Assembly (NCBI GenBank): GCA_964016885.1
Contig: OZ024742.1
Span: forward strand, 137,516,001 to 137,580,000
Source of the DNA: Eledone cirrhosa
Taxonomy: Eukaryota
Direction: 5' to 3'
Length of the DNA stretch: 64,000 nucleotides
The notes under the pieces are model-generated. The model worked only from the letters and a program-made list of their open reading frames with translations, was not told the DNA's origin and did not search any database. This document shows, piece by piece, positions 3,930 through 64,000 of this stretch (its first letter is position 1; every line of letters begins with the position of its first letter). Made by a program: the position numbers and the translations under genes.

Positions 3930-4075
<146 letters not shown>

Positions 4076-4427: not shown

Positions 4428-4525
<98 letters not shown>

Positions 4526-4577
4526 TATATAAGTTTAGGAATAACCAAAGAGTGCTTAGAAATACATTGTTTTATTT

Positions 4578-7957: not shown

Positions 7958-8153
7958 TATAACGAAGGAGTTGTGGTAAGGAACCAGATGGACCATAACG
8001 CACCAGAGTACTCAATACTTTGGGTAGTAGAGTGGGTAATAGGAAAATGTATGACCCCCGACGGCAGAGTTCAAGCCGTTTCGACGGCTATTTCAGTCCA
8101 GAAATAGCCGTCGAAACGGCTTGAACTTTGACGTAGGGGTCATACATTTTCTT
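7958..8153. mobile_element. Short asymmetric fold-back repeat (gacggctatttc/gaaatagccgtc family)
   Basis: Palindrome at about 8041-8152 plus a one-sided tail. Same family at 45.8, 46.2 and 51.6 kb, all next to (TA)n. Confidence 0.75.
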
Positions 8154-10375: not shown

Positions 10376-10629
10376 TAATAGAAGGATAAAAGCAGGGTAA
10401 ATAAGTCATTTGACAAAGTCACGTTCTGGAAGGCAAATAGAAAAATCAATATCGGTATTGAAAAGATTTAAACACAAGGTATCTTCAGTAGAGATTATCG
10501 ATCCTAGGACGATAAAACTAAAGCGATCCGACGCAACAGAACGAACTGCTATTGTACGTTTAGGATGGTGGTGGTGGCGTTGGTCGTGTCGTTGGTGCTG
10601 GTTGTTCAAATGGTGGTGGTGGTGGTGGT

Positions 10630-11720: not shown

Positions 11721-12014
11721 CAAATGGTGGTGAAGGGGATAATGGTGGTCGTGTTGTTGGTGTAGTTGGTGATGGTGGTACGGTGATTGGTATTAGTTGT
11801 GGTGATGGTGGTACGGTGTATTTGTTGTGCTGTTGGACGTGATGTTGTCGCTATTACTGGTATGGATGGTAGTCATCTTGATCGTGTTAGCGTGGCTGGT
11901 TGTTCAGTAGAGTGGTGAATGTGGTAATGTTCGTTGTGTTAATGGTTCGGATAGTGGTGTGATGGTGATGATGTTCTTAGTCCTGCCATTCGAGGTGTTA
12001 GAAGTTTTGGATGT

Positions 12015-12660
12015 TATGGTGGCGGCGGCGGTGGTGGTGGTGGTGGTGGTGGTGGTGGTGGTGGTGGTAGTGGTGGCATTGGCAGTGGTAGCTGTGGTTG
12101 GTGTTGGTGTTGGCGTTGTTGGTGTTGGTGTTGTTGTTGGTGGTGGTGGTGGTGGTTACGGTGATGGTTGTGGCGGTAGTGGTGGCATTGGCAGTGGAAG
12201 TTGTGGTTGGTGTTGCTGTTGGCGTTGTTGGTGTTGGTTACCATGATGGTGGTGACGGTAGTGGTGGCATTGGCAGTGGTAGCTGTGGTTGTGTTGGTGT
12301 TGGCGTTGTTGTTGGTGGTGGTGGTGTTGGTGGTGGTGATGTTGGTGGTGGTGGTAAGGGTGACGGTGTTAATGATGGCAGTGGTAGTTGTGGTTGTGTT
12401 GGTGTTGGTGTTGGTGTTGTTGGTGTTGGTGTTGTTGTTGGTGGTGTTGGTGGTGGTGATGTTGGTGGTGGTGATGTTGGTGGTGGTAATGGTGACGGTG
12501 TTAATGATGGCAGTGGTAGCTGTGGTTGTGTTTGTGTTGGCGTTGTTGGTGTTGGTGTTTTGTTGGTGGTGGTGGTGGTGGTGATGTTGGTGGTTGTAAT
12601 GGTGACGGTGTTAATGATGGCAGTGGTATTGTGGTTGTGTTGTTGTTGTTGGTGGTTACG
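12015..12660. repeat. GGT/GTT low-complexity degenerate repeat
   Basis: Seen directly. Confidence 0.85.
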
Positions 12661-17004: not shown

Positions 17005-17052
17005 ATTTATTTATATTTAGTTATGTAATAAACAACATAAGATAATTATTTA

Positions 17053-17104
17053 ATTTACCAGTGGTTTCTTGAAAGCAAACAAATTTACGTTCAGTCATCA
17101 GAAT
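17053..17104 (-). ncRNA. Minimal type I hammerhead ribozyme motif
   Basis: Minus strand reads att-CTGATGA-ctgaacgtaaatttgtttgctttcaa-GAAA-ccactgg-TA-aat. Stem II has mismatches. Confidence 0.65.
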
Positions 17105-17126
17105 GTTCTCATTCAGAGCAGGATTT

Positions 17127-17186
17127 TTTCATTCTGACGACTGAAAGCAAATCTGTTTGCTTTCAAGAAATCACTGGTAAATGAAA
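17127..17186 (+). ncRNA. Type I hammerhead ribozyme motif
   Basis: tttcatt-CTGACGA-c[tgaaagcaaa tctg tttgctttca]a-GAAA-tcactgg-TA-aatgaaa. Stem I is 7 bp, stem II is 10 bp, and the GUA site ends at 17179. Confidence 0.8.
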
Positions 17187-17529
17187 TAATTATCTTATGT
17201 TGTTTATTACATAACTAATAAGCTCTGTAACCTACATAGAGCACTCTTTTTTCCTGGACCTTTCCGACGGAATTACATCATTTATATTATATATATATAT
17301 ATATCGTTTCTGAATTTGTTTAGTATATATATGTATGGAATTATATATAGTAAAAAGGAAAAGAAAATGCTGACAAATTTTACCCAGTGAAAAATAGTTT
17401 AATTAGGAATAAGTATAAATTAGTAATAAGTATTAGTTAGTATTCAGTTTTAATTTTAAGTTGTTACCGGTTGCGCATTTCTTATGCTTTTCAAAAATAA
17501 TTTTGAGATAGAGATCTCGTGATTTTTGC

Positions 17530-19560: not shown

Positions 19561-19564
<4 letters not shown>

Positions 19565-19791
19565 TAAAATAACAGATTAAAGTGTAAGCAAAGAATCGCA
19601 GCTTTCACCCTTAACGGGATCTTCTGAAACTATGTTAGTTTCAGAAGATCCCGTTAAGGGTGAAAGCAGCGATTCTTTGCTTAAACTTTAATCTGTTATT
19701 TTAATAAATATTTGCTCTACGGTTCTTATATATTTGATAAATATTTATCCTTATCGAGCCCTCTTTGGATTTTAGTCTTCAAATTTATTAT

Positions 19792-33324: not shown

Positions 33325-36300
33325 GTTACATTTATCTTGCTTTATGTTCATACGAGTTATCACCAAGTTACAACCAGTGACCTCAAGAGACAACAAGGTC
33401 CGCCATATTCAAGAAAGAACATACATACACACACATGCATATTTAGTTGTTTAGACTTGTGATGTACTTATATTGACACAATCTTCCTTAGTATATAGGC
33501 AGTTCCCATTAGTACTATCTTTTGTATTTCTCCTATACGCGGGTTTCCTGGGATTTGCGATAAGTAATCATTAGACCCCTTAGGTATCATTCCTAGAGCG
33601 CCTACAACCACTGGTATTGTTTTAGTTCTCAATTTCCACATTTTTCCAATTTCTCTCTCCAGGTCCTTATACTTGCTCAATTTTTCAAATGTTTTTGTAA
33701 ATACATTCTTGTCTATTGGACAGACATATCAATTAGCAGGCATACCCTCTTTTGAAAGTCCTTCAGTATTATATCAGGGCTATTTGCATCTGTTTTTCGG
33801 TCTGTTTGGATGCTAAAGTTCCACAAGATTGAGATGTGATCTTTTTCAAGTATGGGAGGTGGTTGATGTTCCCACCTATTCTTTTGATGGGACAGGTCAA
33901 AATGCTTACACATTATCCAATGTATGTATTGTGCAGCTCTGTAATGCCTGTTTAGGTATTCGGTTGGAGCTATAGGAGTGCACATTGAAATCATATGATC
34001 AATGGTCACTGGTTGTTTTTTTACATACACGGCATAATGGGTTGCATCCATTTTTTATTATGTTGGCTTGGTAATTTTTTGTTGGCAGACACTGATCTTG
34101 TGCCGATATGATCAGTCCTTCCGTCTCCGATTTCAGTCCAGAGGATGCCAACCACTGATGGGTTAAACTTTTGTCAACATCAGGATTGTTAGCTCGTTCT
34201 GGGTATTTTCCATACAGAGGCTTTTCTTGCCATTTCTTAGCCAGTTTCTGTAGCAGTTCTTTCTTTGCAGTTACTTTTACCGGCTTTGCTTTTTCTGTGT
34301 TTTCCATTTCAGCAGCAAATGGGACTTCTGAAATTTGTAATCCATTACTGTATCTTTGCGCATCTTTTGTAATGGAATATGATCTTTTGATGCTTTCGTG
34401 TTTCAAAACGAGTTTGATCATCCAATCATGTGATTCCCTTAGATATGTAGATAATCCAATTGTTGCAGTTTTCAACGCAATGTCTAACTGGTTTAACCCA
34501 TGTCCTCCTCCTTTCCTAGGGAGATATATTCTATCTGTATCTGCCTTAGGGTGATGCATTCTGTGCATGGTTAAGAATTTTCGAATTTTTGTATCGAGCC
34601 TACGGATCTCTGTGCTTGACCAGTTGATGGCATTGTAACTGTAGGTTACTACTGGTATGGCAAGCGTGTTTATGGCATCGATCCTATTCCTTGCATTCAA
34701 TTCCGTTCTTAAGATTGCTCTTACTCTGCGGTAACATTCCTTCCTTATCCTTTACCACATTGTCGAGTGCTTGATTCCGTCTCCTTCACAAACACCTAGA
34801 TATTTGTAAGTTTCCTCTTGATCAAGTTCTCTTATCACATTTCCCCGATCAAGATTAATGTCTGAACTCTTCAGCAGCTTTCCTCTGGTGAACGTTGCTT
34901 TGGCGCATTTATCTAGTCCAAGCTCCATTTTAATGTCATCACTCCATTTTAATGGCTCCACAGTGGATAATAGCCCTTGCAATTCTTCATCATTTTTTGC
35001 AAATAGTTTCAGGTCATCTATGTAGAACAATTAATTAATGGTTTTGTCATAGACTATATCCATGCTTTGCTTCATTGAGCATTTTACTTAATGGTATAAG
35101 TGCGATGCAGAATAAAAGCGGTGATAAAGAGTCACCCTGAAAAATTCCACAATTAATATTAACTTCTCCAGCTTCCAGTGATTTTGTTTCACTATTCAAA
35201 AGGAGTGTCGTTGTCCATGTCTTCATACTGAATGACAAAAACCTCCTGAGAACGGGAGATATTTTGAAAATCTCTAAACATTTTTCAATCTAACTGTGTC
35301 GCAAACTATCGAATGCTTTTTTATAATCTATTCAAGCAATTGATAGATTTTTGTGTCTATTATGACAATCTTCCAGTATCATTTTGTTAACCAAAAGCTG
35401 ATCCTTACAGCCATATCAGCCTCGTTTACACCCTTTCTGCTCAATGGGAAATAGGTCATTTGTTATCAGGTGGTCATATGTGTATTCAGTTAGGACTGAT
35501 GTTAAAATTTTATACATTGTGGTCAAGCAAGTTATCCGTCTGTAATTTTGGGGATTGTTTGTCTCATCATTCTTCGGAAGCAGGAATGTAATGCCGTTAA
35601 CTAGCCATGATGGTATATTTTTCTGGCTCCTTAACTATTTCATTGTAAAGTTGGGCTAACAGCTCGAGACTCTGTGAAGGCATTTATCCAAAAAATGTGT
35701 ATTTTGTCTTTTCCTGGGGATTTCCATTTGCTGGTTTTTCTTAGACCCAAACGCAAATGTTCAACTGTTATATTTTCCCATATCTGTTCCTCGGGGTGAG
35801 CTGTATCTTTTATTTGTCTGTCTATCCATGGGGCATGTATATTATGAATTTTTTCTTCGGCCCAGATCTTTTCCCAGAATTCTTGCACTTCCTCCTTGGG
35901 TGGTATTGATTTAGCAGTTATTGTTGATTTACCAATTTTTCTGTAGAAGTTTCTTTGGTTGTTTTTTAACATATTATTGTCCTTATAGAATCTAGATCGT
36001 TTTTCAAAGCGCCTTATACGAGCAGCTTTGGCCGACACTTTTTGCTTGTTTATTTCTATCAGCATGTCTATGTCACTTGTTGATTTTATACTGTACTTTC
36101 TTTTCAATTTTCTAAGTTTAATTTGTTTAACATGTTCACCTACTTTATAGTTTGTTAACATTTCTATGTCAGATCGGAGAAGGTTTATTTGGCGATTGAT
36201 GTTCTCTTGCCAAGTAGATTTTTTGAGGGAATTCTTTTTGTTTTTTCATCTTCACTCCACATAAGTGAGTGGTGACTTTAGCCGATGCATAATAGAGATG

Positions 36301-40974: not shown

Positions 40975-43952
40975 TGCATTTATCTTGCTTTATGTTTATA
41001 CGAGTTATCACCAAGTCACAACCAGTGACCTCAAGAGACAACAAGGTCCGCCATGTTCAAGAAAGAACATACATATCCACACATGCATCCTTAGTGTTTA
41101 GACTTGTGATGTACTTATATTGACAGGATCTTCCTTAGTATATGGGCAGTTCCCATTAGTACTATCTTTTGTATTTCTCCTATACGCGGGTTTCCTGGGA
41201 TTTGCGATATGTAATCATGAGACCCCTTAGGTATCATTCCCAGAGCGCCTACAACCACTGGTATTGTTTTAGTTCTCAATTTCCACATTTTTCCAATTTC
41301 TATCTCCAGGTCCTTATACTTGCTCAATTTTTCAAATGTTTTTATAGATACATTCTTGTCTATTGGAACAGACATATCAATTAGCAGGCATACCCTCCTT
41401 TGAAAGTCCTTCAATATTATATCAGGTCTATTTGCATCTATTTTTCGGTTTGTTTGGATGCTAAAGTTCCACAAGATTGAGATGTGATCTTTTTCAAGTA
41501 TGGGAGGTGGTTGATGCTCCCACCTATTCTTTTGATGGGGCAGGCCAAAATGCTTACACATTATCCAATGTATGTATTGTGCAGCTCTGTCATGCCTGTT
41601 TAGGTATTCGGTTGGAGCTATAGGACTGCACATTGAAATTATATGGTCAATGGTCTCTGGTTGTTTTTTGCATACACGGCATAATGGGCTGCACCCATTT
41701 TTTATTATGTTGGCTTGGTAATGTTTTGTTGGCAGACACTGATCTTGTGCGGATATAATCAGTCCTTCAGTCTCCGATTTCAGTCCAAAGGATGCCAACC
41801 ACTGATGGGTTAAAGTTTTGTCAACATCAGGATTGTTAGCTCGCTCTGGGTATTTTCCATACAGAGGCTTTTCTTGCCATTTCTTAGCCAGTTTCTGTAG
41901 CAGTTCTTTCTTCGCAGTTACTTTTACCTGCTTTGCTTTTTCTGTGTTTTCCATTTCAGCAGTAAATGGGACTTCTGAAATTTGTAGTCCATTACTGTAT
42001 CTTTGTGCATCTTTTGTAATGGAATATGATCTTTTGGTGCTTTCGTGTTTCAAAACGAGTTTGATCATCCAATCATGTGATTCCCTTAGATATGTGGATA
42101 ATCCAATTGTTGCAGTTTTCAACGCAATGTCTAACTGGATTAACCCACGTCCTCCTTCTTTCCTAGGGAGATATATTCTATCTATGTCTGCCTTAGGGTG
42201 ATGCATTCTGTGCATGGTTAAGAATTTTCGGATTTTTGTATCGAGCCTACGGATCTCTGTGCTTGACCAGTTGATGACATTGTAACTGTAGGTTACTACT
42301 GGTATGGCAAGCGTGTTTATGGCATCGATCCTATTCCTTGCATTCAATTCCGTTCTTCAGATTGCTCTGACTCTGCGGTAACATTCCTTCCTTATCCTTT
42401 CCCTCATTGTCGAGTGCTTGATTCCGTCTCCTTCACAAACACCTAGATATTTGTAAGTTTTTCCTTGATCAAGCTCTCTTATCACGTTCCCCGATCAAGA
42501 TTAATGTCTGAACTCTTCAGCAGCTTTCCTCTGGTGAACGTTGCTTTGGCGCATTTATCCAGTCCAAACTCCATTTTAATGTCATCACTCAACTGATTCA
42601 CAGTGGATAATAGCCCTTGCAATTGTTCATCATTTTTTGCAAATAGTTTCAGGTCATCCATGTAGAACAGGTTATTAATGGTTTTGTCATAGACTCTATA
42701 TCCATGTTTTGTTTCATTGAGCATTTTACTTAATGGTATAAGTGCGATGCAGAATAAAAGCGTTGATAAAGAGTCACCCTGAAAAATTCCACAATTAATA
42801 TTAACTTCTCCAGCTTCCAGTGATTTTGTTTCACTATTCAAAAGGAGTGTCGTTCTCCATGTCCTCATACTGAATGACAAAAACCTCCTGACAACGGGGG
42901 ATATTTTGAAAATCTCTAAACATTTTTCAATCCAACTGTGTGGCAAACTATCAAATGCTTTTTTATAATCTATCCAAGCAATCGATAGATTTTTGTGTCT
43001 ATTATGACAATCTTCCAGTATCATTTGGTTAACCAGAAGCTGATCCTTACAGCCATATGAGCCTCGTTTTCACCCTTTCTGCTCAATGGGAAATAGGTCA
43101 TTTGTTATCAGGTGGTCATATGTGTATTCAGTTAGGACTGATGTTGAAATGTTATACATTGTGGTCAAGCAGGTTATCGGTCTGTAATTGTTGGGATTGT
43201 TTGTCTCATCATTCTTCGGTAGCAAGAATGTAATGCCGTTAACTAGCCATGATGGTATCTTTTCTGGCTCCTTAACTATTTCATTGTAAAGTTGGGCTAA
43301 CAGCTCATGAGACTCTGTGAAGGCATTTATCCAAAAGTTTTGTATTTTGTCTTTTCCTGGGGATTTCCATTTGCTGGTTTTTCTTAGACCCAAACGCAAA
43401 TGTTCAACTGTTATATTTTCCCATGTTTGTTCTTCAAGGTGAGCTGTTTCTTTCATTTGTCTGTCTATCCATGGGGCATGTATGTTATGAACTTTTTCTT
43501 CGGCCCAGATCTTTTCCCAGAATTCTTGCACTTCCTCCTTGGGTGGTATTGATTTAGCAGTTATTGTTGACTTACCAATTTTTCTGTAGAAGTTTCTTTG
43601 GTTGTTTTTGAACATATTATTGTCCTTATAGAATCTAGATCGTTTTTCAAAGCGCCTTATACGAGCAGCTTTGGCCGACACTTTTTGCTTGATTGTTTTT
43701 ATCAGCATGTCTATGTCACATGTTGATCTTATACTGTACTTTTTTTTCAATTTTCTAAGTTTAGTTTGTTTAACATGTTCACCTACTTTATAGTTTGTTA
43801 AAATTTCTATGTCAGATCGGAGAAGGTTTATTTGGCGATTGATGTTATCTTGCCAAGTAGATTTCTTGTGGGAATTCCTTTGTTTTTTCATCTTCACTCC
43901 ACATAAGTGAGTGGTGACTTTAGCCGATGCATAATAGAGATGATTTAAGTCA
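40975..43952 (-). mobile_element. R4/Dong-type family B, 5'-truncated
   Basis: ORFs 43070-43897, 42482-43024 and 41115-42347 give YRPITCL, WIDYKKAFDS, FYMDDLKL, CRVC..HIISMC and RPDIIL..LIDMSVP. (TAA)n flanks. Confidence 0.93.
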
Positions 43953-45257: not shown

Positions 45258-45682
45258 ATATTGTTATACTTTGGGAGAGTCATGTTGCCCATAAGAATCA
45301 CACGCACCAGATGATTTCACTCCAATTTATTATAAATTAAATTATAAATTCAAAAAAATATTTATAAATTTCCGGTTGGTTGCTTCCACAACCGAACGGT
45401 TGTTCATATATTGTCAAAGTTCTTTCGTCACACATACTGTGACATCTTCAGTGACTGGGGATTATTTTCTTTATTTTGTGCCTCTCCTTTGTTCTGTCGA
45501 AAAGAACTTTGAGTGACGAAAGAACTTTGACAATATATGAACAATCGTCCGGTTGTGGAACCAACCAACCAACAGGAAATTTATAAAAAACATTTTAAAT
45601 TTATAAACTAATTTATAATAAATTGGAGAGAAAGCAGCTGGTGCGTGTGATTCTTATTGGCAACATGACCCTCCCAAAGTAT

Positions 45683-45690
<8 letters not shown>
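45258..45690. mobile_element. Fold-back element with hammerhead motif
   Basis: Inverted arms at about 45258-45431 and 45513-45690. The terminus tattgttatactt(t/g)ggga is shared with 52497. Confidence 0.75.
45413..45455 (-). ncRNA. Minimal type I hammerhead ribozyme motif
   Basis: Minus strand reads gtca-CTGAAGA-t[gtcac agtatgt gtgac]-GAAA-gaac-TT-tgac. Confidence 0.65.
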
Positions 45691-45756: not shown

Positions 45757-45759
<3 letters not shown>

Positions 45760-45945
45760 AAAATGTGTATCCCCGACGGCAGAGCTCAAGCCGTTTCGAC
45801 GGCTATTTCTGGAAATAGCCGTCGAAACAGCTTGAGCTCTGTCGTCGGGGTTAAACATTTTCCTATTACCAACTCTACTAACCTAAGTAGTAAGTACTCT
45901 GGTGCATTATGGTCCATCTGGTTCCTTATCACACCTCCTTCGTCA
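45757..45945. mobile_element. Asymmetric fold-back repeat (gacggctatttc family)
   Basis: Same family as 7958-8153 in opposite orientation, (TA)n flanked. Confidence 0.75.
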
Positions 45946-46174
45946 TATATATATATATATATGTATTGAAGTTTCCGTTGAAAACAGAAAAAGTCATAGG
46001 AGTGAAGAGTGCTCTATGTAAGTACGAGAGCAAAATTTAATGTATAAAAAAACAACAATACAATATAATTACCTCATTACCAGAGGTTTCCCGAATAAGG
46101 CGAATACGAAAGAAACGTCTTCATTCTTTCGTCGGACGAGGCATACATTATATATATATATATATATATATATA

Positions 46175-46368
46175 TAGGAAAAAGTATGACCCCGACGGCA
46201 GAGCTCAAGCCGTTTCGACGGCTATTTCTGGACTGAAATAGCCGTCGATACGGCTTGAGCTCTGACGTCAGGGTCATACTTTTTCCTATTCTCACTCTTC
46301 TACCCTAAGTATTGAGTACTCTGGTGCGTTATGGTCCATCTGGTGCCTTACCACAATTCCTTTGTTAT
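46175..46368. mobile_element. Asymmetric fold-back repeat (gacggctatttc family)
   Basis: Same family as 7958-8153 and 45757-45945. Confidence 0.75.
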
Positions 46369-46875: not shown

Positions 46876-47829
46876 CTAAGTTTTTTAAATTATATTATTT
46901 TTCACGCATAAACACATTATGTTAAGGACTAGTCTTGTTAATAGACCTGTGTTTAGGCTGCTGGAAAACTCTTCATTTCGAAAAATCATAATGATCTGCA
47001 ATTTTTTCAAATATAGCGGCTGAAAGATAAATTCGTCATGATGTTAATAAATTTTCTCGCAGGTAACATACCCCGAAAGAAATATCAAATGTCAATTTAA
47101 AGTATCCTAAACTTCTAGACAATGAAACGACTGTAGTGGACGTGAAATTAATGAGCCATGAATTTGTAATATGATAACGTAACGATTCGGCTATTTCGTT
47201 TCTCTCCCTTTGATGTCATCGGTGATCCTGAATGAGATGGAATCAGAAATTTAGAAATGTCTAAGATCACTCAGGTGTTTTGATAGTAATTCCATTCAAG
47301 GCCTATTTGCTCATCCAACTGTTTATTTTTAAAAGTGGAAATATTCGTGCATGGAAAGTAATCATAATCATATAGTATTCAGAGAGAGTGGAATGTTTAT
47401 TTTCTCTCCGCGTGGTTTCTAATGTTGCTTAGCCGTGAAAGAGCTGCCGAGATAAATTGAGTTTGATAATGATTGTATAAAGAGACTCTGCTGAACTACT
47501 ACACACCAAATAGAAGAAGATAAAGAGTAGCAGAATAGGCAAAAGTGAAGAAGTAGTTGCACTAACACATTCTCTTTTTCTTCTTCTTCTCTTCCTCTTT
47601 CTTCTTGTTCTTCTTCTTACCCCCATCCCCTGCCTCCTCCTCCTCCTCCTCCTCCTCCTTCTCCTCCTCCTCCTCCTCCTCCTCCTCCTACTACTACTAC
47701 TACTACTACTCATTTTCCCCCTCTCATCCTCTAGCTCCACGTCTAACCCCCCCCCACACCGCCATCGCCATTAAATCGACATCATTTTAGTCCTTTATCG
47801 TGTTCATGTGGATGAAGAAAATGTCTGCG

Positions 47830-49100
47830 TCAACATCACCACAGCCACCACCACATCCACATCCACCACCACCACCACAACCACAGCCACCACCACAGCC
47901 ACAGCTACCACCACCACCACCACCATCACCATAACCACAACCACCACCATCAGCACAACCACAACCACCACCATCACCACAACCACAGCCACCACGACCA
48001 ACACCATCACCGCATACACAACCACCACCATCACAACAACCACAGCCACCACCACCACTATCACCACAACCACAGACACCACCATCACCACAACCACAGC
48101 CACCACCACAACCACAGCCACCACCACCACCATCACCACAATCACCACCACCACCACCACCACCACCACTACAACCACCACCACCTCCACCACAACCACA
48201 GCCACCACCAAAATCACAGCCACCACCACGACGACAACCACAGCCACGACGACCACCAACAAGACAGCCACCACCGCCACCACCACAACCACCACCTCAA
48301 CCACAGCCACCACCACAACCACAGCCACCACGACCACCATAACCACTGCCACCACCACAACCACAGCCACCACCATCACCACAACCACAGCCACCACCAC
48401 CACAGCCACCACCACCATCACCACAACCACCACCATCGCCATCACCACGACCACAGCCGCCACCACCACCACAACCACAGCCACCACCATCACCACAACC
48501 ACCACCACCACCAACACAACCACAGCCACAACCATCACCACAACCACAGCCACCACCATCACCACAGACACCACCACCATCACCACCACCACCACCATCA
48601 CCACGACAACAGCCACCACCACCACCACAACCACAGCCACCACCACCACCACTACCACAGTCACCACCACCACTACAACCATAGCCATCAGCACCACCAC
48701 CACCACATCCACCACCAAGACCACAACCACAGCCACCACCAAAACCACATCCACCACAACCACCACAACCATAGCCACCACCACAACCACAACCACAGCC
48801 ACCACCACCACAACCACAGCCACCACCATCACCACAACCACAGTCACCACCACCACCACCACAGCCGCCACAACCACCGCCAACACAGCCACCACCATCA
48901 CTACAACCACAGGCACCACCACCATCACCACCACCACCACTACAACCACAGGCACCGCCACCATCACCACCACCACCACAACCACAGTCACCACCACCAC
49001 CACCAACAACACAGCCACCACTATCACCTCAACCACAGGCACCGCCACCACCACAACCACAACCACAGCCACAACCACAGCCACCACCACCACCACCATC
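47830..49100. repeat. Degenerate (ACC)n/accacagcc array
   Basis: Seen directly. It produces poly-Thr and poly-Val ORFs. Confidence 0.9.
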
Positions 49101-49124
49101 ATCATTCTCAGCATCATTATCATC

Positions 49125-49297
49125 GGCAGTATCGGTAGAGAGTCTGACGCCATGCTTTCCAGTATAGTTACGTCCCTTTACGGTCTGAGTTCAAATCCCG
49201 CGGAGGTTTACTTTGCCTTTCATCCTCATGGGGTCGATAAAATAAAGTACCAGTAATGCACTGGGATAATTGCTGGCCTTGTGCCAAAGTAGAAACA
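49125..49297 (+). mobile_element. tRNA-type SINE (ATT-target family)
   Basis: Flanked by TSD attatcatc (49116-49124 and 49298-49306). Confidence 0.9.
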
Positions 49298-51529: not shown

Positions 51530-51692
51530 TAACGAAGGAGGTGTGGTAAGGAACCAGAGTACTCAATACTTAGGGTAGTAGAGTAGGAAATAGGAGAAAG
51601 TTTAACCCCGACGGCAGAGCTCAGGCCATTTAGACTGTTAGAAATACCCGTCGAAACGGCTTGAGCTATGCCGTCGGGGTTTAACTTTTTCT

Positions 51693-51729: not shown

Positions 51730-51938
51730 GCGGGTTCCTGATGTATATCGACAGATGACCGCAGATTAAAATATTCTCAATACGCGAGTAGATTTTAAGC
51801 ATATCTGTATTTACTATAGAAATGGATCCTACACGATTGGAACTGTTTCATTCGTAAGAAATCATTAGGAAAGTCCTGATGATTTCTTACTAATGAAATA
51901 GTTCTAGTCGTAGAGAATTCATTCCTATTGTAAAATAA

Positions 51939-51993
<55 letters not shown>

Positions 51994-52034
51994 CGAAACA
52001 TAAGTCTATTTCATGAACTCATAATCCTTTATTT

Positions 52035-52090
52035 ACTGCTATATATATTTCGATGATAGCCATTGAATGGCTATGTCCTCATCAGGCAGT
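52035..52090 (-). ncRNA. Minimal type I hammerhead ribozyme
   Basis: Minus strand reads actgc-CTGATGA-ggac[atagcca ttcaa tggctat]catc-GAAA-tatata-TA-gcagt. Confidence 0.8.
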
Positions 52091-52222
52091 TAGTCAGTTC
52101 TTAGATATGCCAGCTCTGTGTTTATAGTGTTGATGGTATCAGAGCCTTGGGACATATGAGCTTGTTAGGAATAATTTAATGTTGTCAGTAGGAATAGAGC
52201 TGGCATATCTAAGAACTGACTA

Positions 52223-52278
52223 ACTGCCTGATGAGGTCATAGCCATTCAATGGCTATCATCGAAATATATATAGCAGT
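52223..52278 (+). ncRNA. Minimal type I hammerhead ribozyme
   Basis: actgc-CTGATGA-ggtc[atagcca ttcaa tggctat]catc-GAAA-tatata-TA-gcagt. Predicted cleavage after 52273. Confidence 0.8.
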
Positions 52279-52417
52279 AAATAAAAGATTATGAGTTCAT
52301 GCAATTGACTTATGTTTCGTCACTATTATAACTCCGGAACTTATAACTTCGTTGAGTGCTCCCTATCCGCATACTGAAGTACTGGATTTTACCAACACTT
52401 ACTTTCTTGCTTTCTTG

Positions 52418-52496
<79 letters not shown>

Positions 52497-52502
<6 letters not shown>

Positions 52503-52930
52503 ATACTTGGGGAATGTCATATTGTTATAATATTGCCAGAAGTAATAACAGAACACACTCACTGTTTAGTTTGGGTAGGTTTTCGCTTCTGTGTCTTTAC
52601 ATCTCCATAGTTAATTTATTTGGCAATCAATGTTTATCATTGATTGACCAACGGTTAAAAATACAGATATAAATATATATATATGTAGTCTATCAAAGTT
52701 CATTCGTCACACATCTGCAACATCACTAGTGGCACTATTATCTTTCCTCCCGCTGTGTTGCAAAGTCTACGCCATTTTAAAATTGGCGTAGACTTTACAA
52801 CACAGTATCTGTATTTTTAACCGTTGGAGAAGTTATAAAAGATACAGAAGCGAAAACCAACGCCAAACAAACAGTGAATGTGTTCTGTTATTATTTCTGG
52901 CAATATTATAACAATATGACCCTCCCCAAT
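52497..52930. mobile_element. Fold-back element related to 45258-45690
   Basis: Inverted arms at about 52510-52670 and 52806-52929. A decayed copy of the 45.4 kb hammerhead lies at about 52692-52733. Confidence 0.65.
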
Positions 52931-53826
52931 GTTGTAGGTTAAAATAAATCCCGGAAAACAATAAAACATTAAAAGGAAAGCAGAGTCATTATATAAGTTG
53001 AAACAATGAAATAAAAAATCAAGTCATTAGAAATATACTTCACTACTTTAAGATCGTTTCTAGGCGATTATAATACATCGTAACTATACTTCGATATCGA
53101 TCTATGTAAGGTTATTTACAAAATATCATAAAGATAAAGAGAATATTTACTTACATGCATATCACCAGCTGTTGTCAAAATATATATATGAAAAGATTAA
53201 GGACTCCGACGGTTGAGCTCCGGCCGTTTCGACAACTATGGAAACCGCCTGTACTCTACTACCCCAATTATCGAGTACTCTGGTGGTTTATGAACCATCT
53301 GTTTTTTACGACACCCTATCTGATATATATATATGTATATATACATATACATGTATATATATATATATATACATACATACATATATATATATAAACGGAA
53401 AAAATGAAACGAAATTTCATTTTCCACTCTTAGTACGGCTGTTACTTAAATATAAGTATGTACACGTACATACATATATGTATACAGACGTACAGTAGTA
53501 TGTATATATATATACATACATGCACATATATATATATGTACGTATGGATTCACCGAACATTTATTATAATGCTCGGTGTGTTTGTAAACAAACATCTCGT
53601 ATTAAGCCGTAGTGTCTAGCAACCATCGTGGCTCGTTTGTTCAACACTGACAAAGGAACGCTGTACTAGTTTCAAACTTATTAGCTATCATCAGCAACTT
53701 ATACCTTCCTGCCAGATTGTTTAACGTATATACTTACCTGATGCATATTAACGGCTGAGTAGCCCAATTTGCATATATAGTTAATACTTAAATTAATAAC
53801 ATGTATATAACACAATATAATAATAA

Positions 53827-55918: not shown

Positions 55919-58283
55919 TTTCTTTATTAACCACAAGGGTTTACATAAAGTAGACATTAAGGACAGTGCAGGACAATGCAGGACGGTACAAATGGGCATT
56001 TCTGCTGGTAAAAAACAAAAACAGAGGATGTAACAAAAAATAACAATGAAAAATTCCCCAATAGGGGGGAGACTTCGGAGGGACATTTGTGGAGAAAGCC
56101 CAGTAAAAACCAACAATGACCCTGACCACCAAGGCAAGTGCCCTCTCCCAGTTTTCCACCTTTAATTTACAGATATATATACAGATATATATTCACTCGG
56201 GCCATTCTTGCTTCTCTCACCCATATTTCAACAAAATGCTGGGAAGAGAGCACTTCCCTCTCTACTCTGATTTTCCTTTTCAAATGAAATTTGAAAAAGT
56301 CAATCAGAGCATCACCGAAGAGGTAAGTGCTCGTCTTCAGCCCTTTCAAACGTGTCCACCATACTATCTCTTTCGCCATGGCCACCAGACAGATAAAAAC
56401 TGCCTGCCCTTCCCGGCTAAATGAGGAGGGCGGGGCAATCCTCACGATGGACTCAGATGATAGCCGGATCCGTCCTAAACGCGACAGCAGGTGATCGACA
56501 TAAACCCACAAGTCAGCAATTTTCGGACACTGGACCAGTGCGTGCAGGACGGTTTCGTCGCCCTGCGCGCATCTCGGACATGCCCGGCTGACGGCACCTC
56601 CATGCCTGTAGAGTTTATTCCGAACTGGCAAGGCTCCTCGGTAGCACTGCCAGGCCAGAGATTTCTGGAAGTTGTCCATAGGCCCCGGCCCGAAAGTTCT
56701 TCCGAAGAGATTGGCTAGTTGATTTTCGTCGACGCCTAGAGTTTCCCCAAGTACGTCGTCGCTCTTCCCCTCCACTAATCCTCTATAGAACGCCAAGGTG
56801 GAGTTTCCACCGATCACATTGCCCGATTGGTCGAGGGCTGTGAGCGCCTGAAGACATTCCAGTCTCCAGGCGCTCCCTACGGTCTTCGCTTGACCCAGGA
56901 CTGCAGCTCCGTCAAGGAAACGAGCTGGGGAAATACGTGTCTAGCAAACGGCGACCACACCTGATCACCGTCGAAGAAGAGGTGGAGATGTCGTAACCTG
57001 AACGCGTGCCTGCGCATCATCAGCCACGGCATGCCCAGCCCTCCACGTAGCGGGTGTTGACAACAGATGGACCACCTGACCATCGGAGCACGTCCCTTCC
57101 ACAAAAAGCGAAAGAGCAAACGCTCCAGCCCAGTCAGGCAAGGCTTAGGACAAGGTACGACGGTCAGGCGGTAGCAGATGACAGACGCGATGTACGCGTT
57201 AGCCACCTCCGCTCGACCTTTCAGGGATAGCTTCCTCTCCGCCCATTTCTGGGTGAGAGAAGCCACCCTGCTCGTCACCTCGTCCCAGTTTTTGTCCGTC
57301 TGGAGGTCCGGACCGAACCAGACCCCTAGCAGTTTAACCGGTCCGTCCGTCCAGCGTCCGACGACGCTGTTGTACGGCATGGACCTGCCTCTCCAGGTGC
57401 CGAGCTGCAGGCCCACTGACTTTTCCTGGTTGATCATTGCTCCTGTCACCGCTTCGTTTTCTCTTACTGTAGTGCCGATCGCCTCGATGTGTTTGGCGTT
57501 CGACACCACTACGGTGACATCGTCCGCATATGCTGACACGGATCTTCCGCATCCTAGTTCGCGCGGGACTCCCCTCAACGTGTCCAGTTTGGGCAGTAAT
57601 GGCTCGAGAGTCAATACGTACAAGAGGGACGAGAGGGGACATCCTTGGCGGACCGAGCGCATGATGTTGAACGGTTCCGACAGGTGACCGTTCACTCTCA
57701 CCACAGAGCAGATGTCGCTGTGCATGGCAGCGATCCAGCCTCTGAAGACGGGCCCAAAGCCAGCCGCCCTCAGGACTGCCGCTAGGTAACGATGGTCGAC
57801 CCTATCGAAAGCTTTCGACTGATCTAAATTGATCAAGGACCCACCCGTGCAAGGTTCCTTAGCTACCCTCTCTATGATGTATCGCATGAGGTGGAGGTTG
57901 TCGTGGATGGATCTGTCGGGAATGGCGCATGTCTGCGCCTCTCCCACCAGACCACCAACGACAAGCGCCAACCTCTTTGCTAGCACCTTGGCCAAAATCG
58001 AACTCTGTGTTTAGCAGAGTTATGGGCCGGAAATTATCTATGTTATCCCCCTTGTTCGGATCCTTTCTCAGCAGTGCCACCGCTCCTCGGCTCACAGAAC
58101 TGGGAATTCTCCCGTTCTGTTGCCAGTTGCAGTAGACGTCCGCCAAGAGGCCTCCGAACAAGTCTGGCATCTGTACGTAAAGTTCATAGGGCAGACCATC
58201 CAAACCAGGCGATTTACCCCTTGTGCAGCCAGTCATTGCCTCCCTTACTTCAGCGGCTGTTATCGGCTTTTCGCAACACTTCC
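55917..58283 (-). mobile_element. Tx1/L1-type retrotransposon, 5'-truncated
   Basis: KSPGLDGLPYE, FRPITLLN, LDQSKAFDRV, VRQGCPLS, AYADD and CPRC..ETVLHALVQC. Flanked by (AAT)n on both sides. Confidence 0.92.
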
Positions 58284-58316
58284 GTATAATAATAATAATA
58301 ATGACTGAGATTCAAG

Positions 58317-58346
<30 letters not shown>

Positions 58347-58347
<1 letters not shown>

Positions 58348-58532
58348 TGTTTCTACTTAGGCACAAGGCCAGCAATTATCCAGTGCATTACTGGTACTTT
58401 ATTTTATCGACCCCGTAAGGATGAAAGGCAGAGTTAACCTCGGCGGGATTTAAAATCAGAAAGGCAAGGGCAGTAACTCTATACGTCAAAGCATGGCGTC
58501 CCATCCTCTACCGATACTGCCAATCCACCGCC
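58347..58532 (-). mobile_element. tRNA-type SINE (ATT-target family)
   Basis: Full-length reverse copy inside (AAT)n. Confidence 0.9.
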
Positions 58533-58536
58533 CTCT

Positions 58537-58569
<33 letters not shown>

Positions 58570-59084
58570 CGCTTTTGGAACACTTCAAAAGGCATGCTTG
58601 CTGGGAACAGCAAGAACCCTCCGATACGTCCTGAATATCTGAGGCTGCAGGTAGGGACTTGATATTCATTTCAACAAACATTCCAGTTAAATAACATCAA
58701 TCACTGAGACTCAAAGAACAAGGAAAAAAGATCGTGCCTGATTGTGTATGTGGCCTGCCCATTCGACACGAGATTGCAAGAGAAGGAGAGGGAGAAAATT
58801 TACCGATACCAGGACTTAAAGTGGGAGGTAAAAAGGATTTGGAACTGCCATGAAGTCATAGTGGTTCCGATTGTCATAGGCGCACTAAGTACTATCTCAA
58901 AAAGTTTATAGGGATGGTTAAAGAAAATTGGCCCCTTCACGCTTTTTGGAACGCTTCAAAAGGCCTGCTTACTGGGAACAGCAAGAACCCTCCGATACGT
59001 CCTGAATATCTGAGGCTGCAGGTAGTGGCTTGATATTCATTTCAACAAACTTTCCAGTTAACTAACATCAATCACTGAGACTCA

Positions 59085-59134
<50 letters not shown>

Positions 59135-59440
59135 GAGAGGAGAAAATTAACCGATACCAGGACCTAAAGTGGGAGGTGAAAAGGATCTGGAACTGCCATG
59201 AAGTCAAAGTGATCCCGATTGTCATAGGCGCACTGGGGACTATCTCCAAAAGTTTCCAGGGATGGTTAAAGAAAATCGGCCACTTCACGCTTTTTGGAAC
59301 GCTTCAAAAGGCATGCTTGCTTGGAACAGCAAGAACCCTCCGATACGTCCTGAATATCTGAGGCTGCAGGTAGTGGCTTGATATTCAATCCAACGGACTT
59401 TCCAGTTGACGAACACCAATGACTGAGATTCAAGGAATAA
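58570..59440 (+). mobile_element. Three short 3'-end fragments of R4/Dong family A
   Basis: About 58570-58720, 58721-59084 and 59134-59440, each with KACLLGTARTLRYVLNI* and the 3' UTR. (AAT)n lies before the first, between the last two and after the third. Confidence 0.88.
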
Positions 59441-59714
59441 CAACGATAATAATAATAATAATAATAATAATGTTTTCTTTATTAACCACAAGGGTTCACA
59501 TAAAGTAGACATTAAGGACAGTACAGGACAATACAGGACGGTACAAATGGGCATTTCTGCGTGTAAAAAAACAGAGGTTGAAATAAAATAACAAAGAAAA
59601 ATTCCCCAATAGGAGGGAGACTTCCGAGGGACATTTGTGGAGAAAGCCCATTAAAAGACCACAGTGGCCCTGACCACCAGGGCAAGTGCCCTCTCCCAGT
59701 TTTCCACCCTTAAT

Positions 59715-62700
59715 TTACAGACACATACTCAGAGAAGGCCCATTCATTCGGGCCATACTTGCTTCTCTCACCCATCTTTCAACAAAATGCTGGGAAGAGA
59801 GCACTTCCCTCTCTACCCTGATTTTTCTTTTCAAATGAAATTTGAAAAAGTTAATCAGGGCATCACCGAAGAGGTAAGTGCTCGTCTTCAGCCCTTTCAA
59901 ACGTGTCCACCATACTATCTCTTTCGCCTAGGCCACCAGACAGATAAAAACTACCTGCCCTTCCAGGCTAAAGGAAGGGGGCGGGGCAATCCTCACGATG
60001 GACTCAGCTGATAGCCGGATAGGTCCTACACGTGACAGCAGGTGTTCGACATAAACCCACAAGTCAGCAATGCTCGGACACTGGACGAGTGCGTGCAGGA
60101 GGGTTTCGTCGCCCTGCACGCATCTCGGACATGCCCGGCTGACGGCACCTCCATGCCTGTAGAGTTTATCCCGAACTGGCAAAGCTCCTCGGTAGCACTG
60201 CCAGGCCAGGGATTTCTGGAAGTTGTCCATAGGCCCCGGCCCGAAAGTCCTTCCGAAGAGATTGGCCAGTTGATTTTCGTCGACGCCTAGAGTTTCTCCA
60301 AGTACGTCGTCGCTCTTCCCCTCCACTAATCCCCTATAGAACGCCAAGGTGGAGTTTCCACCGATCACATTGCCCGATTGGTCGAGGGCTGTGAGCGCCT
60401 GAAGACATTCCAGTCTCCAAGCGCTCCCTCTCGGTCTTCGCTTGACCCAGGACTGCAGCTCCGTCAAGGAGACGAGCTGGGGAAAAACGTGTCTAGCAAA
60501 CGGCGACCACACCTGATCACCGTCGAGGAAGAGGTGGAGTGTCGTAGCCTGAGCGCGTGTCAGCGCATCATCAGCCACGGCATGCCCAGCCCTCCACGTA
60601 GCGGGTGTTGACAGCAGATGGACCGCCTGACCATCGGAGCGCGTCCCTTCCACAAGAAGCGAAAGAGCAAACGCTCCAGCGCAGTCAGGCGGGGCTTAGG
60701 ACAAGGTACGACGGTCAGGCGGTAGTAGATGACGGATGCGATGTACGCATTCGCCACCTCCGCTCGACCTTTCAAGGATAGCTTCCTCTCGGCCCATTTC
60801 TGGGTGAGAGAAGCCACCCTGCTCGTCACCTCGTCCCAGTTTTTGTCCGTCTGGAGGTCTGGACCGAACCAGACCCTAGCAATTTAACCGGTCCGTCCGT
60901 CCAGCGCCCGACGACGCTGTTGGACGGCATGGACCTGCCTCTCCAGGTGCCGAGCTGCAGGCCCACTGACTTTTCCTGGTTGATCATTGCTCCTGTCACC
61001 GCTTCGTATTCTCTTAGTGTAGTGCCGATCGCCTCGATGTGTTTGGCGTTCGACACCACTACGGTGACATCGTCGGCATATGCTGACACGGATCTTCCGC
61101 ATCCTAGTTCGCGCGGGATCCCCCTCAACGTCTCCAGTTTGTGCAGTAATGGCTCGAGAGTCAATACGTACAATAGGGACGAGAGGGGACATCCTTGGCG
61201 GACCGAGCGCATGATGTTGAACGGTTCCGAAAGGTGACCGTTCACTCTCACTACAGAGCAGATGTCGCTGTGCATGGCAGCGATCCAGCCTGTGAAGACG
61301 GGCCCAAAGCCAGCCGCCCTCAGGACTGCCGTTAGGTAACGATGGTCGACCCTATCGAAGGCTTTCGACTGATCTAAATTGATCAAAGACCCACCCGTGC
61401 CAGGTTCCCTAGCTACCCTCTCTACGATGTATCGCATGAGGTGGAGGTTGTCGTGGATGGATCTGTCGGGAATGGCGCATGTCTGTGCCTCTACCACCAG
61501 ACCACAAACGACAAGCGCCAACCTCTTTGCTAGCACCTTGGCCAAAATCTTGAACTCTGTGTTTAGCAGAGTTATGGGCCTAAAATTATCTATGTTATCC
61601 CCCTTGTTCGGATCCTTTCTCAGCAGCGCCACCGCTCCTCGGCTCACAGAGCTGGGAATTCTCCCGTTCCGTTGCCAGTTGCAGTAGACGTCCGCCAAGA
61701 GGCCTCCGAACAAGTTTGGCATTTGTACGTAAAGTTCATAGGGCAGACCATCCAAACCAGGCGATTTACCCCTTGTGCAACTAGTCATTGCATCCCGTAC
61801 TTCAGCGGTTGTTATCGGCTTTTCGCAACACTCCGCCTCAGTGGCCGAAAGCCGCGGCAGTCCGTCGAGGTAGACACTAAAGTCCATCCCTCGATCCGGC
61901 CCGCCACTGCCCCCGAACAGTTGAGCGAAGTGTCGCTGAAAAGCTTCACACATTTGCCCGGGATCGAGTAGCATGCGCCCGTCGTGGTCCACAAAAGACC
62001 GGATCGTGGCTTTGTTGCCACGACGCGCCTCCGCCACTCGGGCCCATTGAACGGCTTTCGTCCCCTCGTGTCTGAGAGCACGCACCCTAGCTCTGACAAC
62101 GCAGCCTTCGTGCTTTGCATTGAAGAATTGGTCAAGGGCCAATTTCGCCGCAAGTACGTCGGTCGCGATGCCTTTGCTAAGCGCCTCATCTAATTTTCTA
62201 CCTAATTCTCCCTCTGCTCTATTTTTCTCTATTGCTAAAGTCTTACTAAACCTAATGGACTCTATTCTAATTGCTCTTTTCAGAGCAAACCACCACTTGT
62301 TCTTGACGATGGCCCCCGTCAACGCCCGCTTAACTAGTTCGCTAATCCGGTCTCTGTAGGCCTTGCGCGCTGGTAAGGACGCGTTTAACTTCCAGTAGCC
62401 GGGTCCTCGTCTATGAAGCCTATCTAAGTCAAGCACACAGATCACGAATTTGTGGTCCGTGTAGCTGACTATCTTGAATTGTGGACAGCCTATGCTAGAC
62501 CTATCTATTTCCCTACAAAATACTCTATCTAGATATGATCTGGATGACCCTATGCGATTTGTCCAAGTCCACATTGGTACATTCGGGAAATCCATTCGGT
62601 ACCTCTCAGACAGTTCAAAACGTCTGAGCAGGTTGGTGAGACTCTTGCACCCTCCTTCCCTATCCACTAATCCCACACAATCCCAGCGTGCATCTAAGAT

Positions 62701-63132
62701 CCCGTTCCAGTCGCCCACTAACACTAAAGAGCGGGACGTTCCAAGAAAGGTCTCCAGACGCCGGAAGAAATCAGGCCGCCCTGCTCCTGTCGGGGCATAG
62801 ACGGCCACTAACCTGAAAGCTTGCCCGTCTCCGCTGGTCACGTCCAGCACCACCAACTTACCTTCTGGGTCCAGGAAGATGGCCCGTATGGCAAGATCCA
62901 AACCTCTCCGAAAAAGCACAGCAACTCCTCCCCCCGATCCCGGACGGCTGGGAGATGCGTACACATCGTAGCCGCCGAAGATCGGTGCGAAAGCCTGTGC
63001 TTCGGAGATTCTGGTCTCGCTGATGGCCACTACATCTATGTTTAGTGACCTGAGGTCGTTGAGCAGGTGGCCCTGCTTCCATGACGACCCCAAGCCACGC
63101 GCATTTATGCTGCCTATTCTGAGTGAGGTCAT
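59715..63132 (-). pseudogene. ORF2: APE endonuclease, reverse transcriptase and zinc knuckle; two frameshifts and one stop
   Basis: SINARGL, ISET, VYAP, GDWN, SYLDR and TDH (APE), then RT motifs. Versus the 56-58 kb copy: 1-bp losses near 60873 and 60540, and ATG->TAG at 59928. Confidence 0.92.
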
Positions 63133-63166
63133 GTTGAAAAGGAGTGGAAAAGATGGGAAAGACCAC

Positions 63167-63991
63167 TTACCTTACTTCTCGTAGGGGAAGGACGGCTTTT
63201 CCATCCTTTTCACTGCTTGTGGCCTCCTCAGGAAGGATGTCCTTATAAATCCTCCTGGAGAGTGCTTGTCGGAAGTCTCCGATGTCTTTGGGGAATTTTT
63301 GTTTTAGTGTCATGTACGTTTTCTGTGTGATGCGAGTGATTTGTATGTGTGGAGGTGGTGTGAATTTTGGGGTTGTTGTGTAGTCTTTTTCTGTGATGCT
63401 GGTGTTGTGTTGGATGTAGTGTAATAATTGCTTGTTGTTCAAATTTAATGCTGTGTAGTGTGTATCGTTTTGGTTGTTTTGTTTTGTTTGCGTTTGTTGT
63501 GGGTTTGTTTCTGTTTCGCATTTTGGTGACTTTTGTGGTGTAGGTGATTGTGGTGCTGGGGATAATGATGGTGATGGTGTTGGTGTTTGGGTTGATGGGG
63601 TTGGTGATGCTGGTGTGGATGGTGGCATATCTGTCCTAACTTTTTTGTTTCTTAGTTTATTTGTTTCCCTCTGTATTTTGTTTTTGGAGGGGGAAGGAAG
63701 AGAATTTTTTCTTTTTTGGTTTCTTTTTTTTTTTCCGGATATCGTTTCCCACTCCTCGTCGTCACAATCTGTCTCCAGTTGTGATAGGCCGGGGAGTGGA
63801 AAATCCTCCACAGCCGTTAGTTTTGGTTGTGGTGTGGTGGATGGTGTAGGCGCTGGTGCTAGTTCTGGCACGTTGGGTGGTGGTGGTGTTGGTTTTGCTG
63901 GTGGTGGTAGTGGTGTTGGTTTTGCTACTGTTGCTGGGGTTGTTGTTGTTATAGTTGCTTCTGTTGTTGCTGCTACAGTTGTTGCTGGCAT
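63167..63991 (-). CDS. C-terminal part of Tx1 ORF1 (Pro/Thr-rich, basic patch)
   Basis: Open frame ending 34 bp upstream of the ORF2 ATG, with EEWETISGKKKRNQKRK. The N-terminus is outside the window. Confidence 0.7.
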   Translation of the reverse strand: MPATTVAATTEATITTTTPATVAKPTPLPPPAKPTPPPPNVPELAPAPTPSTTPQPKLTAVEDFPLPGLSQLETDCDDEEWETISGKKKRNQKRKNSLPSPSKNKIQRETNKLRNKKVRTDMPPSTPASPTPSTQTPTPSPSLSPAPQSPTPQKSPKCETETNPQQTQTKQNNQNDTHYTALNLNNKQLLHYIQHNTSITEKDYTTTPKFTPPPHIQITRITQKTYMTLKQKFPKDIGDFRQALSRRIYKDILPEEATSSEKDGKAVLPLREVR

Positions 63992-64000
63992 CTCTGCTAC

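What the first reader, a model, noticed from the sequence alone, without database searches (positions are those of the whole stretch)
51988..52326. Best-preserved inverted hammerhead pair, with a (UA)n palindrome as stem III
Seen: arms of about 130 bp around a 78-nt spacer, both cores intact, with a 5-bp stem I and G-C closing stem II. Stem III is AUAUAUAU, self-complementary as in dimer-cleaving minimal hammerheads and identical to the flanking microsatellite motif. Speculation: stem III could be completed by a second copy or by (UA)n RNA.
Basis: partly seen in the sequence, partly recalled or inferred. Interest (0 to 1): 0.7.

Follow-up and report, generated by a model that had tools for sequence, protein, structure and literature searches.

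The report
Head-to-head Hydra Penelope retroelement ends
The two hammerhead-ribozyme motifs are real, but they are the ordinary tail ends of a known kind of jumping gene (a Hydra-type Penelope retroelement with thousands of copies here) that landed as two short pieces back to back in a TA repeat, and the pair is likely an inactive by-product of insertion.

Summary
The inverted repeat and both type I hammerheads are there as described. They are two 5'-truncated 3' ends of one Hydra-clade Penelope-like retroelement, joined head-to-head in (TA)n. A near-full-length parent (L031) has an RT fold, a GIY-YIG-type nuclease and the Hydra motifs. The ribozyme's 3' half has 2,794 exact matches in the genome. 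The two motifs lie on opposite strands, so one transcript holds only one, predicted to be buried in a 131-bp hairpin. Only 5 of 16 inverted loci keep both. A palindromic stem III completed by a second same-sense copy is the published dimer mechanism. Completion by (UA)n RNA is not supported: it cannot form stem I, and a sister (TA)n-inserting family with 23,143 matches uses AUGCGCAU. Opposite-strand pairs are in print. The one feature not found in print is a bulged hairpin 7-8 nt past each of the element's two 3' ends; this scan noted it before on other DNA. Ordinary; low interest.

The parts
51935..51989 (.). (TA)n target microsatellite, left flank
51990..52197 (-). Left arm: 208-nt 5'-truncated 3' end (pLTR) of the Hydra-clade element, ending at 3' end A directly on (TA)n
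   Evidence: 97.6% to unit positions 3758-3966 of L031; same end in 26 of 30 loci, 25 on a clean TA run
52035..52090 (-). Left type I hammerhead; core intact, stem II weakened by the change at 52076; predicted cut at 52040
52118..52195 (-). The 78-nt 'spacer': unpartnered 5' part of the left arm, element 3' UTR, not a loop
52196..52197 (.). Head-to-head junction, 2-nt microhomology shared by both arms
   Evidence: window against L031 4600-5700; 2-nt overlap
52196..52323 (+). Right arm: 128-nt 5'-truncated pLTR up to the position of end A
   Evidence: 100% to the 3' pLTR of L031
52223..52278 (+). Right type I hammerhead: stem I 52223-52227/52274-52278, core 52228-52234, stem II 52235-52261, GAA 52262-52264, palindrome 52265-52272, predicted cut after 52273
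52324..52411 (+). 88-nt tail between 3' ends A and B; in full-length copies it is the 5' leader in front of the ORF
   Evidence: 96.6% to unit positions 1-89 of L031; 4 of 30 tail loci run on into the ORF
52331..52357 (+). Predicted bulged hairpin (ACUC/GAGU stem, 2-nt 3' bulge, inner stem), 7 nt past end A; shared by other (TA)n-inserting families
52412..52419 (+). 8-nt tandem duplication of the tail's last bases, private to this copy
   Evidence: L037 against the other tail loci
52420..52498 (.). (TA)39 target microsatellite, right flank

Best explanation
This is an insertion of two 5'-truncated 3' ends of a Hydra-clade Penelope-like retroelement, joined head-to-head in a (TA)n repeat, likely made when both nicked target strands primed reverse transcription; its two hammerheads lie on opposite strands and are predicted not to act on each other. 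Shown: family membership, the parent ORF, the two fixed 3' ends A and B 88 nt apart, the one-A-one-B rule of inverted loci, the microhomology junction. Inferred: the element's GIY-YIG nuclease cuts both strands of (TA)n; one strand primes at end A and the other at end B, both internal to the RNA; the two short cDNAs are joined at their 5' ends. Inferred from folding and from published relatives: the hammerhead cleaves, slowly, only as a same-sense dimer through the palindromic stem III, in the tandem source transcript or between two RNAs. The constraint on stem III is self-complementarity, not identity with the microsatellite. Both arms have since drifted neutrally.
For: Parent L031: partial tandem 3208-4922, tail, broken ORF, 3' UTR, same hammerhead and end. 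RT fold: model pLDDT 82.8, top matches are reverse transcriptases including telomerase. GIY-YIG weak hit E 0.0027, below Pfam's cut-off. Hydra motifs read in L031 against PMC8557442 section 11. Ends: 3,091 at A, 115 at B, 9 of 17 long-TA matches at the cut site. Of 30 tail loci, 16 are inverted and all 16 have the partner ending at A; both hammerheads are whole in 5, one in 10, none in 1. Folding. Stem III palindromes differ between families: AUAUAUAU, AUGCGCAU, ACUAGU. Both-strand extension and two internal start sites shown in vitro for a Poseidon-clade element (PMC11167929).
Against: No cleavage or RNA data for this family. The predicted lowest-energy dimer (-37.2) has the core mispaired, so even the dimer may cut poorly. 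The two-strand priming route is taken from another clade. The loci examined are the best-scoring 30 of 40 listed matches per search, not a random sample. Pfam gave no RT hit for L031 or six homologues. No tree against published Hydra proteins was built. The AUAUAUAU palindrome recurs in at least two other family groups, so a bias towards UA is not excluded.
Confidence: 0.88

Rival explanations
1. The inverted pair is a functional unit: the two hammerheads, or sense and antisense transcripts of the locus, complete each other's stem III.
For: Both cores are intact. Transcripts from the two strands would each carry one sense motif, and the palindrome allows a dimer between them.
Against: Each transcript also carries the antisense arm and folds into a 131-bp hairpin (stem I probability about 1e-53). 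11 of 16 inverted loci lack a whole motif on at least one arm. The left motif's active dimer (-27.0) is less stable than two monomers (-29.4). The arms differ by 3%, as neutral drift of 1.6% each predicts.
Confidence: 0.04
2. (UA)n RNA from transcribed microsatellites completes stem III or is cut in trans, linking the ribozyme to its target repeat.
For: Stem III equals the target motif; 86 of the first 100 listed matches keep the exact run (counted by eye); (UA)4 and (UA)10 bind it in cofolds.
Against: Binding takes both A15.1 and U16.1 into one duplex and displaces stem I. (UA)n cannot pair with ACUGC. The sister family with AUGCGCAU has 23,143 matches and the loci seen end on (TA)n. The Hydra hammerheads listed in PMC8557442 file S2 insert in (TA)n with other stem III sequences.
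Confidence: 0.03
3. Cleavage leaves an RNA 3' end of UA repeats that anneals to the nicked (TA)n target, and this is a minor route of insertion.
For: 9 of 17 matches with a long TA run after the core stop there and lack the downstream stem I strand.
Against: 9 against 3,091 at end A. The same ends would come from internal priming on the longest UA run or from deletion between TA tracts; internal ATAT also attracts 15 of 30 5' ends. Hammerhead cleavage was not needed for insertion in vitro in a Poseidon element (PMC11167929).
Confidence: 0.12
4. The inverted repeat arose after insertion by a DNA fold-back duplication of one copy, or is an assembly artefact.
For: Palindromes and (TA)n tracts are unstable and hard to assemble (established knowledge).
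Against: Each arm holds element sequence that the other lacks (80 nt on the left, 88 nt on the right), the arms differ at 4 sites, and 16 loci share the A/B asymmetry with different junctions.
Confidence: 0.04

Closest known systems
Hydra clade of C-terminal-endonuclease Penelope-like elements (PMC8557442: passages, section 11, supplement part 2 read), e.g. Penelope-13_HM and Hydra-1_Obim
   Same: Protein motifs, (TA)n target, type I hammerhead near the 3' end, partial tandems, one-sided tail. Penelope-13_HM is listed with a 5'-truncated inverted copy and a hammerhead on each strand.
   Different: Unit about 4.0 kb with a microsatellite-rich 3' UTR against under about 3 kb; RWR in place of RWK; tail 88 nt against the 30-40 nt given for PLEs; stem III a perfect 8-nt UA palindrome; hammerhead sequence unlike that listed for Hydra-1_Obim.
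Minimal dimer-type hammerheads of metazoan Penelope-like elements (PMC4209133: parts 1-2 of 4 read; review passages PMC6765202)
   Same: Type I, 4-5 bp stem I, long stem II closed by G-C, short palindromic stem III, proposed to cleave as dimers; dual motifs 100-700 bp apart on opposite strands are reported there.
   Different: Longer palindrome (8 nt) than the minimal form; activity of this motif untested.
Poseidon element PAc of the green anole (PMC11167929: passages and part 1 of 2 of the main text read)
   Same: Two internal start sites that bound the tail; both target strands cut and extended in vitro.
   Different: Other clade; its hammerhead overlaps the ORF start, here it lies about 200 nt upstream of the ORF; no strict (TA)n target reported in what I read.
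Animal non-LTR retrozymes (PMC7229834, search listing only; bioRxiv 10.64898/2026.07.22.740005, part 1 of 5 read)
   Same: Type I dimer hammerheads, link to PLEs.
   Different: Retrozymes are non-coding head-to-tail arrays; here the copies are truncated ends of a coding element and are single or inverted.

Membership tests
Type I minimal hammerhead ribozyme | Core CUGANGA / GAAA / UH with stems I and II | tested here: met
Type I minimal hammerhead ribozyme | Short palindromic stem III that lengthens in a dimer | tested here: met
   2 bp as monomer, 8 bp as dimer
Type I minimal hammerhead ribozyme | Covariation in the stems | tested here: inconclusive
   one compensatory and one one-sided change between two families, 4 sequences, not above shuffles
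Type I minimal hammerhead ribozyme | Self-cleavage | not testable with these tools
   needs an assay
EN+ Penelope-like element | Single ORF with RT and C-terminal GIY-YIG nuclease in the parent | tested here: met
   RT fold; GIY-YIG hit below cut-off; order in L031, ORF broken by stops and frameshifts
EN+ Penelope-like element | Partial tandems (pLTRs), inverted 5'-truncated copies, one-sided tail | tested here: met
EN+ Penelope-like element | Hammerhead in the pLTR | tested here: met
   both repeats of L031
Hydra clade | RWK motif near the N-terminus | tested here: met
   RMRWR in L031 and L059, a conservative variant; RMRWK in homologue P0005
Hydra clade | DKG motif changed to DKT | tested here: met
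   HADKTNN in L031 and L032
Hydra clade | CxCx5C linker; CxxC and CxH in the nuclease; no CCHH inside the GIY-YIG core | tested here: met
   read by eye in L031 7100-7800
Hydra clade | Insertion into (TA)n | tested here: met
   3,091 ends at A and 115 at B run into TA
Hydra clade | Length under about 3 kb | tested here: not met
   unit about 3,970 nt in L031, with a long microsatellite-rich 3' UTR; the paper says 'generally', so this is a tendency, not a defining rule
Hydra clade | Placement in the Hydra clade of an RT tree | not tested
Non-LTR retrozyme | Non-coding head-to-tail array of hammerhead units | tested here: not met
   copies are single, inverted or joined to an RT ORF

The most novel reading that the evidence does not exclude
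The element's reverse transcriptase is positioned by two copies of a small bulged RNA hairpin (4-bp outer stem, 2-nt 3' bulge, variable inner stem), one 7 nt past end A and one 8 nt past end B. Each nicked (TA)n strand starts copying just in front of one hairpin. This fixes the tail length and makes one-A-one-B inverted insertions such as this one, with the hammerhead pair as a passenger.
Probability: 0.5. Interest if true: 0.5.

Novelty: new member of a known kind. Interest (0 to 1): 0.2.

Why it matters
The hammerhead pair itself matters little: it is one of a class of insertion products already in print. Two side results are of use. Sister families in one genome show that stem III is held to self-complementarity (AUAUAUAU against AUGCGCAU), which supports the dimer model from sequence alone. 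The bulged hairpins beside both 3' ends give a testable handle on how Penelope-type enzymes choose internal start sites and why their insertions have a one-sided tail, which is still open.

Tried and rejected
Rfam at gathering score: no match in the window. Sequencing runs: no RNA holder listed, so expression and cleavage in vivo were not examined; three runs of unrecorded kind, one sample, were laid as contigs and only repeat ends A, B and the 5' truncation hot spot. Pfam found no RT family in L031 or in 6 of the 24 homologues scanned; sequence and profile searches of solved structures gave nothing meaningful; the Atlas gave no answer; the RT was shown by fold instead. The paper on dimer cleavage of PLE hammerheads (PMC5785218) is not held, so only its title was seen. 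The idea that the A at 52286 marks a subfamily and shows the two arms came from different RNAs was dropped: the query selected for it and G is the common base (35 of 39). Neptune and Naiad were considered for the parent and rejected on domain order, linker and DKT motifs. Target-site duplication cannot be read in (TA)n. The host context of the insertion (intron or intergenic) was not determined.

Full report
Observation. The inverted repeat is there: arms 51987-52117 and 52196-52326, 131 nt, 97% complementary, 78 nt apart, with four differences. Each arm holds a type I hammerhead pointing outward, 52223-52278 on + and 52090-52035 on -, with stem I ACUGC/GCAGU, core CUGAUGA...GAA, a G-C-closed stem II, AUAUAUAU between A15.1 and U16.1 (standard numbering, as in PMC4209133) and a predicted cut after 52273. 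Rfam has no match at gathering score in the window. Both flanks are (TA)n.

The family. The right arm has many near-identical matches in G000, a 3.0-Gb genome (40 of 125 candidates scored, 30 fetched). The 27-nt 3' half of the ribozyme has 2,794 exact matches against 0 for the reversed control, and 3,022 with a free gap across stem III. In loci chosen by the tail, not by the ribozyme, 27 of 30 whole motifs have an intact core and divergence is about 1.6% per site. Good preservation is therefore the rule. In the window, the right motif is of the common type; the left has one change that opens stem II.

The parent. Following copies upstream gave L031: a truncated copy (3208-4922), then a tail, a broken ORF, a microsatellite-rich 3' UTR, the same hammerhead and the same end on (TA)n; the unit is about 3,970 nt. 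An open 278-residue stretch, folded with 16 homologues, gives a model of pLDDT 82.8 whose best matches are reverse transcriptases, telomerase among them. The C-terminal part has a weak GIY-YIG hit, E 0.0027, below Pfam's cut-off. Pfam found no RT family. The motifs given for the Hydra clade in PMC8557442 section 11 are read in L031: RWR for RWK, DKT, a CxCx5C linker, CxxC and CxH, no CCHH core. No tree was built, and the unit is longer than the under 3 kb usual for the clade.

Anatomy of this insertion. The window maps on the L031 unit in three pieces: 52197->51990 on - (97.6%), 52196-52326 on + (100%) and 52324-52412 on + (96.6%, the first 89 nt of the unit). So the 'spacer' is the unpartnered 5' part of a 208-nt left arm, and the right arm carries an 88-nt tail. 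The arms meet on a 2-nt microhomology at 52196-52197. The family has two fixed 3' ends on (TA)n: end A, 3,091 matches, and end B, 115 matches. Of 30 loci fetched with the tail (best 30 of 40 listed), 16 are inverted, 10 are single and 4 run on into the ORF. In all 16 inverted loci the partner arm ends at A. Both hammerheads are whole in 5 of the 16, one in 10, none in 1. The pair of ribozymes is thus what remains when both arms happen to exceed about 100 nt.

How it likely arose. For a Poseidon-clade element, purified protein cuts and extends both target strands and starts at two internal RNA sites that bound the tail; hammerhead cleavage was not needed (PMC11167929, passages and part 1 of 2 of the main text). 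Applied here by inference: both (TA)n strands prime, one at A and one at B, and the two short cDNAs join at their 5' ends. Pairing with the target also shapes 5' ends: 15 of 30 copies stop at an internal ATAT 167-170 nt from end A.

Can the pair work? The motifs are on opposite strands, so a transcript has one sense and one antisense copy. Both read-through transcripts fold into a hairpin of -238.5 and -231.7 kcal/mol, in which stem I has a probability near 1e-53. The isolated right motif has an active-monomer probability of 7.5e-5. Its active dimer (-32.8) beats two folded monomers (-29.4), although a dimer with mispaired cores is lower still (-37.2). The left motif's active dimer (-27.0) does not beat two monomers. 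Dimer cleavage through a palindromic stem III, with low activity in vitro, is the published model, and the same paper reports dual motifs 100-700 bp apart on opposite strands (PMC4209133, parts 1-2 of 4). The supplement of PMC8557442 lists a Hydra element with an inverted 5'-truncated copy and a hammerhead on each strand. The natural partner is the same-sense copy in a tandem such as L031, or a second RNA.

The (UA)n idea. A (UA)n RNA binds the palindrome but takes both A15.1 and U16.1 into one duplex and displaces stem I; it cannot act as substrate strand because it does not pair with ACUGC. A scan of the window and 83 loci found other hammerhead families with palindromic stem III: AUAUAUAU in at least two groups, but also AUGCGCAU with the same stem I as one of them, and ACUAGU. 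The AUGCGCAU family has the same layout and its copies seen here end on (TA)n; it has 23,143 matches, and about 64 of the first 100 listed lie in outward inverted pairs within 5 kb (counted by eye; 2 of the first 100 for this family). Self-complementarity is what is kept. One loose end: 9 of 17 matches with a long TA run after the core stop at the cut site. They could come from cleaved RNA, but internal priming or deletion between TA tracts explains them as well.

The tail hairpin. Tails of unrelated families share ACUC...YY-GAGURCY. Among 19 sequence clusters with the motif 30-80 nt before (TA)n, 14 have ACUC upstream; with a 2-nt bulge 39 of 42 inner positions pair and 11 of 14 pair fully, against 0-1 of 14 for bulges of 0, 1, 3 or 4 nt. 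In 52 control clusters 11 have ACUC and 4 pair fully; the control likely includes real tails. Clusters are related, so they are not independent. Here the hairpin is at 52331-52357, 7 nt past end A; in three other families ACUC lies 5-7 nt past the last shared base, and 13-14 nt in the AUGCGCAU family, where a TA-rich run blurs the end. Earlier notes of this scan on other DNA describe this hairpin and a second one past end B. I checked that here: a second hairpin starts 8 nt past end B, intact with pairing probability 0.99 in 3 of 5 copies that hold the region and mutated in 2; L032 gave no usable segment. The first hairpin's probability is 0.05-0.72. I did not find these hairpins in print in searches or in the supplement search (line-wrapped sequences can hide a match; subscription papers and one supplement file of PMC4209133 were not searchable). 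Their role is inferred from position only.

Verdict. Real, young, ordinary: a new family of a known clade in an arrangement already described. No RNA run was listed, so nothing is shown about activity. Interest 0.2.

Noticed in passing
window 51547-51691, 51810-51934, 52507-52929, 53180-53314, 45262-45686, 45757-46320, 8043-8151, 17017-17218, 19561-19707, 4531-5616: Further short inverted remnants in or beside (TA)n; several carry the same tail motif (46320, 46494, 51558, 53279, 8007) and look like ends of other (TA)n-inserting families.
   Followed up: partly
L043 355/476, L015, L067; G000: Family with an AUGCGCAU stem III, 23,143 exact matches, often in outward inverted pairs about 240 nt apart. 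Whether it has a coding parent was not checked.
   Followed up: partly
L011 1885-1948, L019 2175-2234: Sister family with the same stem I and stem III, changed stem II and unrelated flanks.
   Followed up: partly
L029 891-1419: At least 14 head-to-tail 38-nt repeats of the element's 5'-truncation hot spot in front of a copy, suggesting repeated template jumps between two short TA-containing sites.
   Followed up: no
L082: Two copies tail-to-tail on one (TA)11 tract, one of them ending at the hammerhead cut site.
   Followed up: no
L034 about 1980-4910 (opposite strand): A different Penelope-like ORF of a canonical type lies near a copy of this family (clade judged by eye).
   Followed up: no
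window 56170-63171 (-), 58786-59471, 34002-34751, 41118-42356: Fragments of non-LTR retrotransposon ORFs (AP-endonuclease/RT type and restriction-like-endonuclease type, by recalled motifs).
   Followed up: no
window 10409-12594 (-), 47775-49253 (+), 63170-64000 (-): Long Thr/Pro-rich low-complexity open frames on different strands; mucin-like exons or simple repeats.
   Followed up: no
G000 C1:131451876 and C1:131455826: Two same-sense hammerhead matches 3,950 nt apart, the spacing of a full tandem unit.
   Followed up: no
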